Below, piece after piece: positions 7,830 to 14,324 of a DNA stretch of 64,000 nucleotides. Source of the DNA: a virus (Duplodnaviria; Heunggongvirae; Uroviricota; Caudoviricetes); IMG/VR virus record IMGVR_UViG_3300033069_001798, positions 64,001-128,000 of that record. The stretch is one strand, 5' to 3'. Both the position numbers and the translations under genes were made by a program. The notes below the pieces were generated by a model that saw nothing but the letters and a program-made list of their open reading frames with translations, made no database searches and had not been told where the DNA came from. Positions within the stretch are counted from its first letter, which is position 1. Each line of letters starts with the position of its first letter.

Positions 7830-8333
7830 ATGAAGCTGCAACTAGGTGCCTTGAGACGTTTGATATCAGAAGTGCTTGAGGATGATCTTGACGAAGAAAT
7901 CAACGAATTGCGAGAAAATCCTGAGTACATGTCGTTGGAGGCTTTCATAGAGAGCAAGCTAGATGATGACAACTATGAATACAACTTCATCGATTTGCAT
8001 GCTCTAGGGCGCAACATGACGCAAGCAAAGTATGGTTCAAAGATGGAAGTCTCTGAAGCTGGTGCTAGCGATCTTGCGCACATCAAGAAAGAACTTGGCG
8101 ATCTTGGGTTCAAGTTTGTTGGCAGAAACGTGACAAAGAGCGTCAGAGGATTTAGAGCTGGAGCGCACGGCAGGAATCCGTTCGCAGGCTCGGGCGGCGG
8201 TGGAACCGGCATGGGATCTGCGTGGGGAAATCCAACTGGATTCTCTCATGGTGGTGGACCCGGTGCTGTCGGCGGTGGATACAACTGGAGCGCTGGTGAT
8301 TCCAAGAATCTGAAGATGGGCAGCAAGCGCTAA
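7830..8333 (+). CDS. putative virion (head-internal) protein with shared N-terminal MKxxxxxLRxLIxE motif and Gly-rich C-terminus
   Basis: MKLQLGALRRLISEVLE; GSGGGGTG/GGGPGAVGGG tail. Confidence 0.65.
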   Translation: MKLQLGALRRLISEVLEDDLDEEINELRENPEYMSLEAFIESKLDDDNYEYNFIDLHALGRNMTQAKYGSKMEVSEAGASDLAHIKKELGDLGFKFVGRNVTKSVRGFRAGAHGRNPFAGSGGGGTGMGSAWGNPTGFSHGGGPGAVGGGYNWSAGDSKNLKMGSKR

Positions 8334-11300
8334 TCCCAATTTTCTCATCTTGAACACCGCCGTCGACATTCCAAACTCGTTCCTCTCAACTTCAGCGCAG
8401 TACAACGTGAACGGTTGAAGCAGCTCTTTGCAACCCCACACGCTGATGCGATTTGGCTTGCCTGTCGGACCAGTTGCAAAGATCTGAACGTACTCTTTTC
8501 CGTTCTTTGTCTTGCGCTTCACACCAGTCACGGGCTTTGCACCCTTCTTGGGTGAAGTAGGAGTGACGACGAACCAGCAAACTTTTATCTCGCCGAGCTC
8601 AACATCTTCGACTGGAACTACTCCCTTCCCGTCTAGGGCATCGAGCAACCGAGGATCAATCATCGCTGTCACATCCAAAGTGCCGAACACTTCAACCATG
8701 TTCTGAGCCTTCTCGATAGAAGACCAATCAGGTTGCCCAGCGTACTTTCGAACAAGCTCAAAGAAGTTCTTCAAACCTTCAGTTGGATCGCTCTTGGGAT
8801 GTCGCTTTATCAGAGCATTATGATCTATCTCAGCTTCGAACGTTGAAACTTCACCTTTCCTCTTCTTCGTCACTGTCTCAACGTGAGATCCAACGATGAC
8901 ATCGTGCATGTGCTTGTAGCTGCTGAACAGCTTTCCTTCACCAACGATGTTCATTGAACCAAAAGCACCAATCTTGATGAGAGCTTCTAGAGCCCTCTTG
9001 TTGAACTTGCTGTGCCTCCAGTTGAATTCATCATCCCACAGCAGATCTTCAATTGCCTCGTAAGGTCTGTTTTCCATGATCTCTTCAACTGCTGAATCAC
9101 CAACACCCTTGCAGCTTGTCATCGATGGCATCAATTTCTTGCCGGGCAGCACAGTCCAACCAAGCGCAGCTTGGTTGATATCGATTGGGACGATCTGGTA
9201 GCCCAAAGCCTTCACTTCGCTGAAAGCTTTTGCTCGCTGCTCTGGGGTGTTTGACATGGACTCGAGATAAGCGCACAACCACTGCTCTTCGTAGTGCGTT
9301 AGCAACCAGGCACACCAGTACGAGTCGATTGCGTAAGCAACTGCATGGCTCTTGTTGAAACCGTAACCGCTCATGAAACAGATCGTTTCATACATCTTGC
9401 GAGCAGTTGCTTCCGGAACGCCGTTCTTCACAGCACCAGCAACGATGCTGTCTTCAAGTTCCTTCATCTTCTTCTTCGCAGCTTCACCGCCTGAGATGCT
9501 GCGCTTCATGATAGCACGTCGAACCTCGTCAGTTTCTGACAGCGGAAAGCCAGAGACTTTGTTGACAAGAGCCATGACGCCCTCTTGGAACACCAGCAAC
9601 CCACGTGTTTCTTTCAACGTAGAGTTGATGAGCGGGTGACCCCAGTCGTACGGTTCAACTTCATGCTTCAACCACAACTTGTCAACGTGAGCCGCTAGCG
9701 GACCCGGTCGATAAATGGACGTCAAAGCTGCGATATCGATGATGCTCTTTGGCCGAGCCTTCTTGAAAAGTTGCTGAGCGCCTTTTCCTGTACATTGAAA
9801 TACGCCAGCCCAACGCCCTTCGCAGTAAGTTTCGTATGCCTTCTGATCGTCAAGATCGATGACATCAGGTGACATGTTGTTTTCATACCAAGTCTTGATG
9901 TCATCGAACGTTGGTGCTGCATTTCCCTCTTTGATGAGGATCAGTTCGATCGTTCTTTCGATCAACCTCAACGTTTCAAGGCCAAGAATGTCGTACTTGA
10001 TGAAATTTCCGATCTTCTCAAGGTGTTTGAAGTTGACACCTTCTACCCAAGGACTCTGCGGTTCACCCTTGCTGGTGATCAGGGGCATCTTGTTTGGAAG
10101 ATCGTCAGCAATTAGAACACCACCTGCGTGACGTCCAAGAGAACGATTCTGCTTGAACAGAACGTTCATAGATTCGCCAACTTCAGGGTGCCGTGCAATG
10201 AAGTCTGAGAAAGCTTTGTCGTACTTCAAACCCTCATCGTACGTGAGCACGAATAGGTTCTTGTCATCACCTTCCTTCATCGTTGCGCGGCGAACAGAGT
10301 CTTCGACAGTTCTAGTCGCGGCGTTGACTTCATCGAAGGGAATGCCATAGAACTTGCTGACATCCTTCAAGAGACTCTTCACCTTGAAAGCATTGTAGTT
10401 CGAGATTGGAACGACGTTCTCGTAACCAAAGAAATTTCGCAGCTGATCAAGAACTTTATCGCGGTCAGAGACGTCGCTATCAATGTCTGGCGCACCTTGA
10501 CGATGCACGGAGAGGAATCGAGAGAAAGGTAGGTCCCACTTGATCGGATCTAGGTCGGTGATGTACAGCACGTACGCAACAAGAGATCCGGCGCCACTGC
10601 CTCGCCCAGGTCCTACCAAAACTACTTTCCGCGCCAGCTCGATGATCTTTTGGTACGAGATGAAGTAATCCGCATTCTTCATCTGCTTGATGACGCCGAG
10701 CTCTTCTTTCAAACGATCAAGATATTCATCCTTGCCATCGAGCCCACGCTTCACCATCCCATCCTTGCACAACTTCACGAGATGGTTGAATGACTTCTCA
10801 CCTGGTGGGATGAGGCGCTCAGTTGGAAACTTTTGCGATCGATCTGGTTTAACCTCACCAATGAGGTGATGCGCGATGTCATGGGTTCGCTCAATTGCAT
10901 CACAGATGATCTGATCATCGTAAAAAGACGTATCGACCTTCGACTTCAAGTACTCATCCCACATCTGAGGCGCGTTCTTTGGGTAAAGTTCGCACTTCAG
11001 CTCGTCTCGAGATTTTGGAAGTGAATTGGGATCGATCGTCTGGTAGTTCATCCAACCCAACTTCTTGTAGAGCTCACGCTCCTTCCAGACGTCTGGATTG
11101 TAGTAGTGTGCATCTCCAGTGACAACAAGTTGTTTTTGCAAACCATTTCTGGTTGCAAACTCAATGATTGCACGGTTGACAAGGTTCTGCGCCGGCAGAC
11201 GGTTGAACTGCAGCTCGAGGAAGTAATTTCCTTCACCAACCGCAGACACCATCATGTCGTACGTATTTCCGACAGCATCAACGCACTTATCAAGAAGAGC

Positions 11301-11510
11301 CTTGTCGTCAAGGAGCGACTGGTTGAGATTATCGAACGAAATTCCCTGAAGCACTTGGAATACGCTCCAAGAGGGAAACCCGCCGATGCAATTATGGACT
11401 AGCGAACCATCAGCAAAAAAACAATGTGTATCTTCAACTGTTATGTCATATACGTCAGGTGTTTCTTCGTCAATGGAAATGCTGTCAATTTCAACGAATT
11501 CAGTTGTCAT
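8331..11510 (-). CDS. dnaE: DNA polymerase III alpha, C-terminal fragment with split-intein C-part; ends at TTA 8331-8333
   Basis: MTTEFVEI...YDITVEDTHCFFADGSLVHN|CIGG (intein C plus Cys+1), GRGSGAGS, PDIDSD, GRHAGGV, KYDILGL, YGFNKSHA. The track extension past FKMRKLG is an antisense overlap with 7830..8333. Confidence 0.93.
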
Positions 11511-12459
11511 CTGCATAGCTGTCATTGATTGATTTGATGAATTCGTCAAGGTAACCTTCTTTTTTCAAGTCCGCTTCCCACAACACACAAACATTATAGC
11601 CAATTGATCTGGCATAAGCCAACTTTATCTCATCTTTTGACCATTTTTCACTTGCCTTAACTTGCCCGTACGGAAATTGAATTAGATCATCAGCGTTATA
11701 AACGCGTGGATCTGCGTGCCAGTACGTTCCATTTACTTCAATGATCAGATTGAATCTTGGTACAAAAACATCATATGCAAATTTGCCCAAAATTTTCTGT
11801 GTTTCACAATGAATATCTTTGTTTAGCAATTCAGATACAACTCGCAATTCGAGTTTCGAATTGCGAGCACGCATACTAACAAGCCCTTTAAGCCCTCTAT
11901 TTCTTGAGAGTTCACGAATTAGTTCTAGAACGTCATCAGCAGCAAGCTGTTGATAGTTCGAAAATGATCTTGAGAATGGAGACTTACTTTTTCGAAAGGC
12001 TGACGATTTAACATTTGCTTCGTCAAGAGAATATCCTTTATTGAGATAATATTCAGTATTATTTTTGGGCGTGTATGCATCCCATGCCTTTCTAATACGA
12101 TGAGTAGTCTTAGCACCTTTTGAAGATTGTTGTGAACAGATCTTTTTTATCTCTTCAAGAGAAGTTCCCTTAGGATATTTGAACTGCAACTTAACTTCTT
12201 GAGGCAATCTCAAGTAAAGTTTATTGTTATGAACTATGCCTAGTTTATGAAACAGATTTACAATTGATCGTTTTGAAAAACGAAAACGTGTAACAATATC
12301 ATTGTGATCTCTCACAATTAGATCATAAATCATAGACAAACTATAATGTAGGTCTGATGCCAGGCGCTTCAATTCAACCGTCGTCAGACCTACATGAGTT
12401 AGAGAGTCAAGAAATTCTTGACGAGCTAGTGCTTTCTTTTTAGAATCAAATTTTCTCAT
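11500..12459 (-). CDS. free-standing VSR/DUF559-like homing endonuclease between split-intein halves of dnaE
   Basis: FAYDVFV..LIIEVNGTYWHAD..DEIK..GYNVCVLWE; AT-rich. Confidence 0.88.
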   Translation of the reverse strand: MRKFDSKKKALARQEFLDSLTHVGLTTVELKRLASDLHYSLSMIYDLIVRDHNDIVTRFRFSKRSIVNLFHKLGIVHNNKLYLRLPQEVKLQFKYPKGTSLEEIKKICSQQSSKGAKTTHRIRKAWDAYTPKNNTEYYLNKGYSLDEANVKSSAFRKSKSPFSRSFSNYQQLAADDVLELIRELSRNRGLKGLVSMRARNSKLELRVVSELLNKDIHCETQKILGKFAYDVFVPRFNLIIEVNGTYWHADPRVYNADDLIQFPYGQVKASEKWSKDEIKLAYARSIGYNVCVLWEADLKKEGYLDEFIKSINDSYADDN

Positions 12460-12475
12460 AGTTGTCCACCAATAA

Positions 12476-13477
12476 CTATTGGTGGATTGACAGTATATGA
12501 TCTGTTTTCAGAAGTTCTTGTGCTTCTACCCAACCACGTTTAGTATAGACTTTGTGATCAGGCGTTACCCGCAATGTTGCACCATTTTTAAGCTTAATTC
12601 GAACAATTTTTGCTTGTTCTCTTGTTTTATCAGCCCAAGTAACTTTCTTAAAAACAAGTTGGTTTGTGTCATGATCATATGACAACACCGAAATTTCAGT
12701 GCCATTTTTTACATGTTCAACTAGATTAACAATCTTCATTGAACCACAATTGGTGATCACAATTGAATCTGGATGAATGCATGCAGAAGTGACAACGATG
12801 TTACGATCTTTTCCTGCTTCCTTCAGCATCTCCAAGTCGATGCGAGGGAATCTGTAAAAACCCTGCATGTACGCTTTCGAGCACGCAGAGAAAATGGACA
12901 GCAAGCCCTGCTGGTTCTTTGGCAGAACAACAAGGTGATGACGACGGTTGACGGGATTGAAGTGCTTCGTTGACTTTGACTCGTCTTCATTTTCAACTGT
13001 CAGAGCATTGGTCATCTCGATGTCTTCGGTTTCATCCGCTTCATCGACGACAGCAATGATCTTTGTCTGCAGCTTTTCCTGCTCCTTCAGGAGCTTCGCT
13101 GCTGCTTTCTTATCGACCAGGGCTTCTTCAGCACGAAGCTTGTCAACTTCCCACTGCTTCAAGCTTGGGTGAAAGTACATTTCACAACCCGGAATGTACT
13201 TGAAAGGAAGTTTTGGGTTTGCTTTATTCCAATCTTCAACTGCGAGTTGAGCATGAGCGTAACTGTTCATGTTACCGTGCTCAGTAATTGCGTGAGCATC
13301 AAGACCATTCTCACGACAAAAATCGAAATGTTCGTTCGGGTATCCGAGGCCGTCAAAGGGTGATTAAATCCCCTACGAAAACCCTGTGTGATTATGCAAA
13401 CCAACAAATCGCTTCGGAGTGCGCACAGAGTTTTCTAGGGATACCTCCTTTCTGTTGTTTGAATCGTTAATTTTCAT
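12476..13477 (-). CDS. dnaE: DNA polymerase III alpha, N-terminal (PHP) fragment plus split-intein N-part, interrupted by a 15-nt in-frame gap at 13361-13375
   Basis: ATG 13477 (or GTG 13426) gives RTPKRFVGLHNHTGFS-[TAG GGG ATT TAA TCA]-PFDGLGYP..AITEHGNMNS..PGCEMY..HLVVL..TSA|CIHPDS..TPDHKV (intein N). Confidence 0.88.
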
Positions 13478-14235
13478 TCCCATTCCTTAATCAATGACGC
13501 GTATTGTTGTCGAAGGCTATAATATTCCTTCGGACCAACAATTTGCAACCTCTCGTTTGGATACTCAATTGTAAATTCGTCGAGTTGACGTTTCGACCGA
13601 TCATCCATCCAGCCTTTGATTTCAATGAAACAACCATCAACATAGAAATCTGGCGTGTAAGAAATCCCACTTGCGAGCTCGAACGTTTTCGGTTCATATA
13701 GCCAAGATTTTCCCTGGTGGATAAGAATTCGTGCGTAATTTGCCTCCCATGAACTGCGATAAAATCCAGGAAGATCATCTCGCTTCCCGGCCTTTCCTCG
13801 TGATTTGAGACCACCTTTCATTTGTTTTCGAGCATTATCACTATGTTTTCGACGTTCTTCTCGCGAACGAATTCGTTTCTTATTGAACGTAATAGTTCTT
13901 TCACGACCCTCTTTCGTCTGTCTCCAGTTCGAAACACCAAACTTTTTAAGGTTCGTCTGACGAATTTTTTCTTTGACCTCATTACGAGACCACGGATTTT
14001 CTACTTTTCCTGAAAGTAGATTCTGTTTGGTTATTTCACCAATTTTCTTACGTCGTTCTTCATCCCATTCAAATGCGCCACCTTTTCTCATATTTTGCGT
14101 TCGAAGTTGATTACGACAGTTTTTTGAACATGTGCGGCACCAATTACCTTTTGATTTATCAATAAAAGGATTATGGCACCAGTCACAAACTTTTTCTCTT
14201 GATTTCATGGCTTCAACACCATGAATATACTTCAC
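13474..14235 (-). CDS. PD-(D/E)xK homing endonuclease with Zn-finger
   Basis: CDWC..CRTC, RSSWEANYAR, YTPDFYV..IEIKG. Confidence 0.8.
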   Translation of the reverse strand: MKYIHGVEAMKSREKVCDWCHNPFIDKSKGNWCRTCSKNCRNQLRTQNMRKGGAFEWDEERRKKIGEITKQNLLSGKVENPWSRNEVKEKIRQTNLKKFGVSNWRQTKEGRERTITFNKKRIRSREERRKHSDNARKQMKGGLKSRGKAGKRDDLPGFYRSSWEANYARILIHQGKSWLYEPKTFELASGISYTPDFYVDGCFIEIKGWMDDRSKRQLDEFTIEYPNERLQIVGPKEYYSLRQQYASLIKEWE

Positions 14236-14273
14236 TTTAATTTAGATGACCACCTAATAATCCATAGGAGCCA

Positions 14274-14324
14274 CTAAGAAAAGCACGTGTGATTATGAAG
14301 ACCAACAAATCGTTTCGGTGTCAT
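14274..14324 (-). pseudogene. duplicate 5' end of dnaE (MTPKRFVGLHNHTCFS-TAG)
   Basis: Near-identical to 13376-13423 (TPKRFVGLHNHTGFS). Has its own SD-like AAGGTAAG and lies upstream of the endonuclease. Confidence 0.85.

What the first reader, a model, noticed from the sequence alone, without database searches (positions are those of the whole stretch)
13358..13378. Candidate programmed translational bypass (ribosome hop) inside the dnaE PHP motif
Seen: ...CAT AAT CAC ACA GGG TTT TCG [TAG GGG ATT TAA TCA] CCC TTT GAC GGC. Removing the 15 nt restores the canonical PHP motif HxHTxxSxxDG (HNHTGFSPFDG). The gap is in frame and holds two stops. It starts with TAG right after a Ser codon (TCG), ends with a Ser codon (TCA) readable by the same tRNA-Ser, and can fold as AGGG-GAT/ATC-A-CCCT. 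Established knowledge: T4 gene 60 bypassing uses matched take-off and landing codons, a UAG after take-off, and a stem-loop. Inference: an essential polymerase depends on a 15-nt hop, or on removal of a micro-intron, possibly by the phage RNA ligase. The track start at 13270 would delete metal ligands.
Basis: partly seen in the sequence, partly recalled or inferred. Interest (0 to 1): 0.85.

Follow-up and report, generated by a model that had tools for sequence, protein, structure and literature searches.

The report
Ribosome-hop gap in phage dnaE
The only replicative DNA polymerase gene of this uncultured giant phage is broken in a catalytic motif by 15 real, stop-containing bases that arrived with a selfish nuclease gene, and eleven other 7-16 base versions in related phages indicate that ribosomes hop over the gap, a decoding event known in nature mainly from phage T4 gene 60.

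Summary
On the minus strand, dnaE reads ...HNHTGFS (TCG, 13378-13376), then TAG GGG ATT TAA TCA (13375-13361), then CCC TTT GAC GGC (PFDG).

Among 158 related dnaE loci from other metagenomes, 12 distinct alleles carry a gap in this motif, 11 at the same Ser codon and one at a Ser three codons upstream.
- Gap lengths are 7, 8, 9, 11, 12, 15 and 16 nt. Four are not multiples of three.
- Every gap starts with a stop codon (TAG, TAA or TGA) right after a TCN codon.
- Every gap ends at the first downstream triplet that the same Ser-tRNA could re-pair with.
- Both flanks vary mainly at third codon positions.
- A 91%-complete relative has no other dnaE.

Gaps are scattered on the DnaE tree. They travel with an N-terminal extension and usually with a PD-(D/E)xK homing-type endonuclease gene just upstream. 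The window also keeps a relic of the resident 5' end and a roughly 180-nt co-conversion tract.

Best reading (about 0.78): an obligatory short translational bypass carried by a homing-endonuclease cassette, a short-gap analogue of T4 mobA/gene 60. The micro-intron, artefact, pseudogene and downstream-start readings are disfavoured. No publication describing it was found. This scan has reported the same element before on other DNA. Nothing is shown experimentally.

The parts
14274..14324 (-). Relic of the resident dnaE 5' end: ATG plus 15 codons (MTPKRFVGLHNHTCFS) ending TCT, then TAG. It lies to the left of the inserted cassette.
   Evidence: It resembles the insert-free relative L008 (HNHTCFS) rather than the cassette copy (HNHTGFS).
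13474..14235 (-). Free-standing homing-type endonuclease gene (253 aa, P0001). It has an N-terminal Cys-rich, helical DNA-binding part and a C-terminal PD-(D/E)xK nuclease domain. Its TGA stop overlaps the dnaE start region.
   Evidence: PHROG endonuclease and resolvase families, E 2e-14 to 4e-9. Invariant E181, P195-D196, E205-x-K207 in 10 homologues. The fold model's best PDB matches are all PD-(D/E)xK nucleases, including T7 endo I, Vsr, TnsA and the homing endonuclease I-Bth0305I, but with weak E-values (6e-3 to 0.1). Homologues sit directly upstream of dnaE in relatives.
13376..13483 (-). dnaE ORF1: ATG (13483 or 13477) to the take-off codon TCG (13378-13376), 36 or 34 codons. It comprises a cassette-borne N-terminal extension plus the first PHP motif HNHTGFS.
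   Evidence: Open frame and peptide conservation across gap-bearing alleles. Variable columns by codon position are 6, 8 and 20 of 20.
13361..13375 (-). 15-nt coding gap TAG GGG ATT TAA TCA. The stop codon follows the take-off codon directly. The last triplet TCA (13363-13361) is the predicted landing codon.
   Evidence: TCA is the first TCN triplet in any frame after take-off, and there is no C before it.
12476..13360 (-). dnaE ORF2: resumes at CCC (13360-13358) and encodes PFDG..., the rest of the PHP domain and the N-half of a split intein. The first ~180 nt are a co-conversion tract imported with the cassette.
   Evidence: Pfam PHP and Intein_splicing. WIN versus L008 identity is 62-78% in the first 180 nt and 82-96% beyond, while identity to the cassette-bearing L088 is higher in three of the first four 45-nt windows (0-45, 90-135) and lower in the other two.
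8037..12459 (-). Context: a second free-standing endonuclease gene (11500-12459), followed by the intein C-half plus the rest of DnaE (8037-11549).

Best explanation
The 15 nt are a real, non-coding gap that ribosomes skip by programmed translational bypassing. Translation starts at the ATG that overlaps the stop of the upstream endonuclease gene. It proceeds for 34-36 codons to Ser-TCG, with UAG then in the A site. Because termination is slow, peptidyl-tRNA(Ser) un-pairs and the mRNA slides. The tRNA re-pairs at the first compatible triplet (UCA, 15 nt on), and decoding resumes at CCC. This yields an intact HNHTGFSPFDG metal-binding motif.

The gap, the N-terminal extension and the PD-(D/E)xK endonuclease gene form one mobile cassette that spreads among related jumbo phages by homing. 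The gap most likely persists because it disrupts the endonuclease's target in the conserved PHP-coding DNA without altering the protein.

Shown by sequence comparison: the anatomy, the conservation rules, the scattered distribution and the recombination tract. Inferred, not shown: the hop itself, its efficiency, the endonuclease's cleavage site and the immunity role.
For: 1. Twelve distinct alleles have gaps of 7, 8, 9 (five alleles), 11, 12 (two alleles), 15 and 16 nt inside the same motif. Eleven follow the same Ser codon and one (L079) follows a Ser three codons upstream.
2. All gaps begin with a stop. All three stop codons are used, and four lengths are not multiples of 3, which excludes readthrough or a variant genetic code.
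3. Within one clade the gap is 8 nt (L043) or 9 nt (L113, L049), with no change in the flanks.
4. In 12 of 12 alleles the landing triplet is the first one after take-off, in any frame, that is either TCN or shares positions 2-3 with the take-off codon. Ten of 12 gaps contain no C before it.
5. All gap alleles use TCN at take-off, whereas 58 of 98 insert-free alleles use AGC or AGT there.
6. Both flanks are under protein-level constraint. Variable columns by codon position are 6/8/20 upstream and 2/0/10 downstream, and synonymous pairwise codon differences outnumber nonsynonymous ones 267 to 100.
7. No conserved start codon lies downstream of the gap, and Met 13270 is Cys in L002.
8. The 309-kb, 91%-complete genome of L003 holds only this one, also fractured, dnaE.
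9. On the DnaE tree the gaps need 11 changes, at least 8 of them forced by supported branches, and most gap alleles (WIN, L013, L029, L088, L094) pair with an insert-free sister on a supported branch; L043/L045/L113 form an all-gap clade.
10. An N-terminal extension of at least 15 codons occurs in 13 of 13 gap rows against 13 of 101 others. An upstream endonuclease hit occurs in 7 of 13 against 4 of 101. Decayed or lost endonuclease genes with a retained gap (L003, L013, L094, L043, L113) mirror the decay series described for the T4 MobA element (bioRxiv 10.1101/2022.08.31.505936).
11. The window shows homing footprints: a relic of the resident 5' end and a ~180-nt tract that diverges from its closest relative.
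Against: No RNA structure is shared by all alleles, and local folding energies are unremarkable (z between -1.6 and +1.1). Strong stimulators like those of T4 gene 60 are therefore not evident, and efficiency could be low. Synthetic stop-hops are described as low-efficiency (bioRxiv 10.1101/2022.08.31.505936; PMC5009743). Four alleles would land on a triplet matching only 2 of 3 positions (GCG or ACC). L088 and L079 contain earlier partial matches inside the gap. Two lineages (L026, L034) have an intact endonuclease gene but no gap, so the immunity role is not strict. The alleles share ancestry through the cassette, so the counts are not independent events.
Confidence: 0.78

Rival explanations
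1. The gap is removed from the transcript (a micro-intron or RNA editing, perhaps using the phage RNA-repair enzymes), so the ribosome reads a continuous ORF.
For: The window's 15-nt gap can form a small hairpin. No RNA data exist to exclude this reading.
Against: Relatives have gaps of only 7-9 nt with no shared structure. That is too small for any known self-splicing or bulge-helix-bulge intron (established knowledge). RNA excision does not predict the invariant stop codon right after a TCN codon, or landing on the first tRNA-compatible triplet. A ribosomal mechanism predicts exactly these.
Confidence: 0.05
2. Two polypeptides are made: a 34-36 aa N-terminal peptide carrying the HxH ligands, ending at TAG, and a separately initiated ORF2. 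They assemble non-covalently, as the split Topo2L halves do in T4.
For: Homing-endonuclease insertions are known to split genes into associating halves with added tails (bioRxiv 10.1101/2022.08.31.505936, section 12). Both flanks are under selection, which this model also predicts.
Against: No in-frame ATG, GTG or TTG with a ribosome-binding site is conserved in or after the gap in the 12 alleles. The split would fall between adjacent residues of a single metal-binding loop. The model does not explain why the gap always ends with a take-off-matched triplet.
Confidence: 0.06
3. The gene is broken: an assembly or sequencing artefact, or a pseudogene. The phage either uses another polymerase or uses a truncated DnaE starting at Met 13270.
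For: The window's own reads could not be inspected. The G000 record is only 42% complete, so a second polymerase gene cannot be excluded for this particular phage.
Against: The same kind of gap occurs in 12 alleles from many independent samples, with identical gaps in independent assemblies. Purifying selection acts on both flanks. There are no stops anywhere else in 158 x 194 codons. Met 13270 is not conserved. Only one dnaE is present in a 91%-complete relative.
Confidence: 0.03
4. Different standard recoding events act in different lineages: stop-codon readthrough for gaps that are multiples of 3, and +1 or -1 frameshifting for the others.
For: Each single event type is well known in phages (established knowledge; PMC5009743).
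Against: Several in-frame gaps hold two stops (WIN TAG...TAA; L002 and L094 TAG TGA). Readthrough would add 3-5 residues inside the metal-binding motif. Closely related alleles differ by 8 versus 9 nt, which would demand a switch of mechanism within one clade.
Confidence: 0.03

Closest known systems
Phage T4 gene 60 50-nt translational bypass within the MobA homing-endonuclease element (Huang 1988; Bonocora 2011; Manning & Atkins, bioRxiv 10.1101/2022.08.31.505936)
   Same: A free-standing homing endonuclease gene lies immediately upstream. There is an added N-terminal extension. The coding gap sits a few dozen codons into the downstream ORF (codon 46 in T4; 26-36 here), inside a conserved metal-binding motif of an essential replication enzyme. 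A stop codon follows the take-off codon, and take-off and landing codons match. The same decay series is seen: endonuclease lost with gap kept, then gap lost with extension kept. Phylogenetic distribution is patchy, and flanking sequence is co-converted.
   Different: There is no sequence homology to that element. The gap is 7-16 nt rather than about 50 nt. No conserved take-off stem-loop, in-gap Shine-Dalgarno or forward-slippage barrier was found. The endonuclease is PD-(D/E)xK rather than MobA. The take-off codon is Ser rather than Gly. The host gene is dnaE rather than topoisomerase. In most loci the endonuclease gene lies upstream of the gene instead of splitting it. Nothing has been shown experimentally.
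Synthetic 'stop-hops' in E. coli reporters (Weiss, Dunn, Atkins, Gesteland 1987, as reviewed in PMC5009743)
   Same: A short hop of peptidyl-tRNA over a stop codon between matched codons. It is frame-independent and needs no large structure.
   Different: Those are artificial and described as low-efficiency. The review states that no natural occurrences were known. Here the hop would be obligatory for an essential gene, and the gaps are 7-16 nt rather than 6.
Streptomyces phage phiHau3 terminase 10-nt UUA-triggered bypass (PMC10732093)
   Same: A short (10-nt) frame-breaking block in an essential phage gene that is proposed to be bypassed. A junction peptide was found when it was expressed in E. 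coli.
   Different: It is triggered by a rare sense codon whose tRNA is developmentally limited, and it is proposed to be regulatory. It is not linked to a homing endonuclease.
Magnusiomyces capitatus mitochondrial 'byps' (27-55 nt), as summarised in bioRxiv 10.1101/2022.08.31.505936
   Same: Many mobile, disruptive inserts in essential genes that are rendered harmless by bypassing.
   Different: They are mitochondrial. They are longer GC-cluster-like elements. The A-site codon is an unassigned sense codon. No endonuclease is involved.
'Fractured genes' with split inteins and free-standing endonucleases (Dassa et al. 2009, PMC2677866)
   Same: The same dnaE is also split by a split intein with a free-standing endonuclease gene. 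In their model the invading endonuclease element supplies the downstream gene's start codon through overlapping coding sequence, as is seen here.
   Different: That solution works at the protein level by trans-splicing. The gap described here has no intein and must be resolved at translation.

Membership tests
Programmed translational bypassing (general mechanism class) | Two coding segments of one protein are separated by a non-coding gap, and both are under protein-level selection | tested here: met
   The PHP motif is split HNHTGFS | PFDG. Third-position variation dominates on both sides. Pfam PHP matches downstream.
Programmed translational bypassing (general mechanism class) | Take-off and landing codons are readable by the same peptidyl-tRNA, and decoding resumes at the next codon | tested here: met
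   In 12 of 12 alleles the landing triplet is the first TCN, or the first triplet sharing positions 2-3 with the take-off codon. Four alleles match at only 2 of 3 positions. The tRNA identity itself is inferred.
Programmed translational bypassing (general mechanism class) | A slow-to-decode codon (stop or rare) follows the take-off codon directly | tested here: met
   TAG, TAA or TGA in 12 of 12 alleles.
Programmed translational bypassing (general mechanism class) | A single polypeptide spanning the gap is produced | not testable with these tools
   This needs mass spectrometry or a reporter assay.
T4 gene 60 / MobA bypass cassette (homologous family) | A gap of about 50 nt with a take-off stem-loop, an in-gap SD-like element and a conserved cassette sequence | tested here: not met
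   Gaps are 7-16 nt. No structure is shared across alleles. Only the window allele has a local hairpin, and cluster B has a different helix.
T4 gene 60 / MobA bypass cassette (homologous family) | A MobA-type endonuclease inserted in the topoisomerase II large-subunit gene | tested here: not met
   The host gene is dnaE. The endonuclease has a PD-(D/E)xK motif and fold.
T4 gene 60 / MobA bypass cassette (analogy: works like it) | Endonuclease, N-terminal extension and gap are inherited as one mobile unit, with progressive decay | tested here: met
   Associations. Scattered tree distribution. Decay series. Co-conversion tract and relic 5' end.
T4 gene 60 / MobA bypass cassette (analogy: works like it) | The gap protects the carrier DNA from its own endonuclease | not testable with these tools
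   This is inferred from position only. L026 and L034 carry the endonuclease gene without a gap.
PD-(D/E)xK homing endonucleases | A conserved E...PD...(D/E)xK catalytic motif on a restriction-endonuclease-like fold | tested here: met
   E181, P195-D196 and E205-x-K207 are invariant in 10 homologues. The C-terminal domain has pLDDT of 90 or more. The top fold matches are all PD-(D/E)xK nucleases, though with weak E-values of 6e-3 to 0.1.

The most novel reading that the evidence does not exclude
This is one member of a natural, previously unpublished family of obligatory short 'stop-hops' of 7-16 nt that are frame-independent. Peptidyl-tRNA(Ser) re-pairs at the first compatible triplet. The family is carried by a PD-(D/E)xK homing-endonuclease cassette that invades the PHP-motif DNA of jumbo-phage dnaE. 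The cassette supplies both the gap, as self-immunity, and an N-terminal nascent-peptide extension that enables the hop. It would be a second, independently evolved endonuclease-plus-bypass mobile element after T4 mobA/gene 60.
Probability: 0.6. Interest if true: 0.85.

Novelty: new variant of a known kind. Interest (0 to 1): 0.8.

Why it matters
Programmed bypassing is among the rarest recoding events. The 2016 NAR review (PMC5009743) states that no natural stop-hops were known and that shorter counterparts of gene 60 had long been presumed. The 2022 Manning & Atkins preprint found only homologues of gene 60 itself.

A set of a dozen natural variants at one site offers a ready-made mutational series for asking what a ribosome minimally needs in order to hop. 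The variants differ in gap length (7-16 nt), stop codon, landing match (3 of 3 or 2 of 3) and N-terminal extension.

It would also show that selfish endonucleases repeatedly exploit bypassing to protect their own insertion sites in essential genes. In practical terms, gene callers truncate or split such genes, so phage polymerases are mis-annotated.

Tried and rejected
- DNA search of cultured phage genomes (INPHARED) found no match. The protein search found only distant DnaE below 46% identity. The family therefore seems confined to uncultured phages.
- An exact-pattern scan for the HNHTGFS-TAR junction in IMG/VR returned only the two loci already found.
- No tRNA genes, and so no suppressor or Ser tRNA, were found in the window or in the 140-kb record.
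- RNA structure: single-sequence folds of 12 alleles gave z-scores from -1.6 to +1.1. RNAalifold over 11 alleles anchored at the landing codon gave only a trivial 4-bp helix in coding sequence. I did not build a covariance model.
Read support and RNA evidence are therefore untested.
- Pfam and PDB sequence searches of the endonuclease gave nothing significant. PHROGs, motif conservation and the fold search were needed.
- The two endonucleases of the window are not detectably similar in sequence.
- I first took the GGAGG at 13448-13444 as the ribosome-binding site for a GTG start at 13426, 17 nt away. I rejected that as the main start because four alleles have no start codon at that position, while the frame stays open from the upstream ATG in all 12 alleles.
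- Literature searches found no description of a dnaE bypass.

Full report
**What is there**

The gene lies on the minus strand. From ATG 13483 (or 13477) an open frame runs 36 (or 34) codons to ...CAT AAT CAC ACA GGG TTT TCG. It is followed by TAG GGG ATT TAA TCA (13375-13361) and then by CCC TTT GAC GGC.

The downstream part matches Pfam PHP (E 6e-15) and ends in the N-half of a split intein. A second endonuclease gene (11500-12459) follows, and then the intein C-half plus the rest of DnaE (8037-11549). The window is part of a 140-kb IMG/VR virus record, in which this is the only PF07733 match.

**Relatives**

Cultured phage genomes hold nothing close. Scans of IMG/VR and JGI metagenomes with the PHP-domain protein returned 160 related loci, of which 158 could be analysed.

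Fourteen loci (12 distinct alleles) carry a gap inside the same motif:

| Allele | Take-off, gap, resume | Gap length (nt) |
|---|---|---|
| Window | TCG, TAGGGGATTTAATCA, CCC | 15 |
| L002 | TCG, TAGTGATCT, CCC | 9 |
| L003 | TCG, TAATGCG, CCC | 7 |
| L013 | TCT, TGAAGTGGGTCT, CCA | 12 |
| L028 | TCC, TAGAGATCT, CCT | 9 |
| L029 | TCC, TAGTTGAATCT, CCA | 11 |
| L088 | TCG, TGAAGACACTTAATCT, CCT | 16 |
| L094 | TCC, TAGTGATCC, CCA | 9 |
| L043/L045 | TCC, TGATAACC, ACG | 8 |
| L113 | TCC, TGAATAACC, ACG | 9 |
| L049/L110 | TCC, TAAGTAACC, ACG | 9 |
| L079 (a Ser three codons upstream) | TCG, TGAACCAACTCA, GGA | 12 |

All other loci read straight through, for example HNHTGFSPFDG or HSHSGFSTFDG. 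None of the 158 loci has a stop in the next 194 codons. The interruptions are therefore not random damage.

**Rules shared by the gaps**

- Each gap opens with a stop directly after a TCN Ser codon. TAG, TAA and TGA are all used.
- Four lengths (7, 8, 11, 16) are not multiples of three. Within one clade the gap is 8 or 9 nt. Readthrough, suppression or a variant genetic code therefore cannot explain them.
- In 12 of 12 alleles the last triplet of the gap is the first triplet after take-off, in any frame, that is either TCN or shares positions 2-3 with the take-off codon. Ten of 12 gaps contain no C before it.
- All gap alleles use TCN at take-off, whereas 58 of 98 insert-free alleles use AGC or AGT at that Ser.

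These are the signatures expected if peptidyl-tRNA(Ser) leaves its codon and re-pairs at the first compatible triplet. Which Ser tRNA of the unknown host reads these codons is inference from general wobble rules.

**Both flanks are translated**

Across the gap-bearing alleles, the 20 codons before take-off vary at 6, 8 and 20 columns for codon positions 1, 2 and 3. The 10 codons after the gap vary at 2, 0 and 10 columns. Synonymous pairwise codon differences outnumber nonsynonymous ones 267 to 100.

No in-frame start codon is conserved after the gap. The Met at 13270 proposed as an alternative start is Cys in L002. The genome of L003 (309 kb, 91% complete) contains only this one dnaE, itself fractured. 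Pseudogene, downstream-start and spare-copy explanations therefore fail.

**A mobile cassette**

It encodes a 253-aa protein with PHROG endonuclease and resolvase matches (E 2e-14 to 4e-9). It has an invariant E...PD...ExK motif. Its modelled C-terminal domain finds only PD-(D/E)xK nucleases in the PDB, including T7 endo I, Vsr, TnsA and the homing endonuclease I-Bth0305I, although the E-values are weak.

Homologues sit directly upstream of dnaE, with the stop overlapping or abutting the dnaE ATG. The state of the gene varies across loci:

| Endonuclease gene | Loci with a gap | Loci without a gap |
|---|---|---|
| Intact | Window, L002, L028, L029, L088, L049/L110, L079 | L026, L034 |
| Truncated or frameshifted | L003 | L016, L068 |
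| Absent | L013, L094, L043, L113 | most other loci |

All gap alleles also have an N-terminal extension. The median is 19 codons before the conserved Phe, against 8 in the others. An extension of at least 15 codons is present in 13 of 13 gap rows against 13 of 101 others (Fisher 2e-10). An upstream endonuclease hit is present in 7 of 13 against 4 of 101 (1e-5). These tests ignore relatedness.

On a maximum-likelihood tree of the downstream 194 residues the gap alleles are scattered. They need 11 changes, at least 8 forced by well-supported branches. WIN, L013, L029, L088 and L094 each have an insert-free sister on a supported branch; L043, L045 and L113 form an all-gap clade, and L002, L003, L028, L049 and L079 sit in weakly supported or unresolved positions. 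L012 and L068 keep the extension but have no gap, which looks like secondary loss.

This decay series matches what Manning & Atkins describe for the T4 MobA element.

**Footprints of homing in the window**

To the left of the endonuclease gene lies a 16-codon relic of a dnaE 5' end (14324-14277, MTPKRFVGLHNHTCFS) followed by TAG. It resembles the insert-free relative L008 rather than the cassette copy.

Downstream of the gap, the window is only 62-78% identical to L008 for about 180 nt, and it is closer to cassette-bearing L088 in two of those four 45-nt windows (82 vs 69%, 76 vs 62%) and less close in the other two. Beyond that point it is 82-96% identical to L008.

In L079 the sequence 3' of the gap is almost identical to the insert-free L083, whereas the 5' side differs at many sites.

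These are the co-conversion patterns expected of endonuclease-driven homing. Where the endonuclease cuts, and whether the gap gives immunity, are inferences. L026 and L034 have the endonuclease gene without a gap. They carry unusual substitutions nearby (FISVH and FFGIH), whose meaning is unknown.

**RNA signals**

RNAalifold finds no helix shared by 11 anchored alleles.

The L043/L113/L049 clade has a 7-8 bp helix between the gap end with its landing codon and the downstream GGTTAY. It shows one compensatory change (ATAACCA/TGGTTAT versus GTAACCA/TGGTTAC). That is too little to build on.

Earlier notes of this scan on other genomes report a co-varying hairpin. I could not confirm one shared by all alleles in my set.

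**Comparison with the literature**

- The T4 cassette shares the overall architecture but not the sequence, gap length, structures or endonuclease family.
- The 2016 review by Atkins and colleagues states that natural stop-hops were not known.
- The 10-nt gaps of phiHau3 are the nearest short natural candidate, but they are triggered by a rare UUA codon.
- Dassa et al. 2009 describe the split-intein arrangement that also affects this gene, and mention bypassing only as an unlikely alternative.
- Five full-text searches found no report of a dnaE bypass.
- Within this scan the same element has been reported repeatedly on other DNA, including a near-identical 15-nt allele. Those notes are not independent evidence.

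**Verdict**

The finding is real. It is best explained as an obligatory short translational bypass carried by a homing-endonuclease cassette (confidence about 0.78). It is a new variant of a known kind, and it remains unproven until a junction peptide or a reporter result is obtained.

Noticed in passing
window 13444-13448 (minus strand); the same element in L002, L003, L013, L028, L029, L088, L094, L043, L049, L113, L079: A GGAGG/GGAGA Shine-Dalgarno-like element lies inside the N-terminal extension, 66-71 nt before the usual take-off Ser codon, in every gap allele. It occupies two different codon phases and encodes K-E-V, S-E-G or G-G. This suggests conservation at the RNA level. It may be the ancestral ribosome-binding site, a second initiation signal or a bypass stimulator.
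   Followed up: partly
window 8037-13270 (minus strand): The same dnaE is also fractured by a split intein, with a second, unrelated free-standing endonuclease gene (11500-12459) between the halves. Making one DnaE therefore needs both a ribosome hop and protein trans-splicing.
   Followed up: partly
L026:2207-3040 and L034:1943-3040: Two lineages have an intact endonuclease gene upstream but no gap. Both carry unusual substitutions in the otherwise conserved FVGLH/FFGLH segment (FISVH and FFGIH). These are possibly an alternative way of escaping self-cleavage.
   Followed up: no
L012:180-300 and L068:2900-3040: These alleles retain the cassette-type N-terminal extension but have no gap and no intact endonuclease gene. 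They look like a precise secondary loss of the gap ('hit and run').
   Followed up: partly
L043:2990-3025, L113 and L049 at the same positions: A 7-8 bp helix joins the gap end plus landing codon with the downstream GGTTAY (Gly-Tyr codons). It shows one compensatory A-U to G-C change between L043/L113 and L049.
   Followed up: partly
L003 genome (G001:C1:81210-86538): The DNA_pol3_alpha domain of this 309-kb relative is found in three separate open frames. Its dnaE is therefore fractured even more than the window's. A homologue of the upstream endonuclease's nuclease domain also lies inside the gene (L003:5732-5959).
   Followed up: no
window 14236-14273 (minus strand): A 38-nt linker lies between the relic dnaE 5' end (ending TCT TAG) and the endonuclease ORF. 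The left junction repeats the TCN-TAG of the functional gap. This suggests either that the cassette entered exactly at the Ser codon, or that the donor already carried this junction.
   Followed up: no
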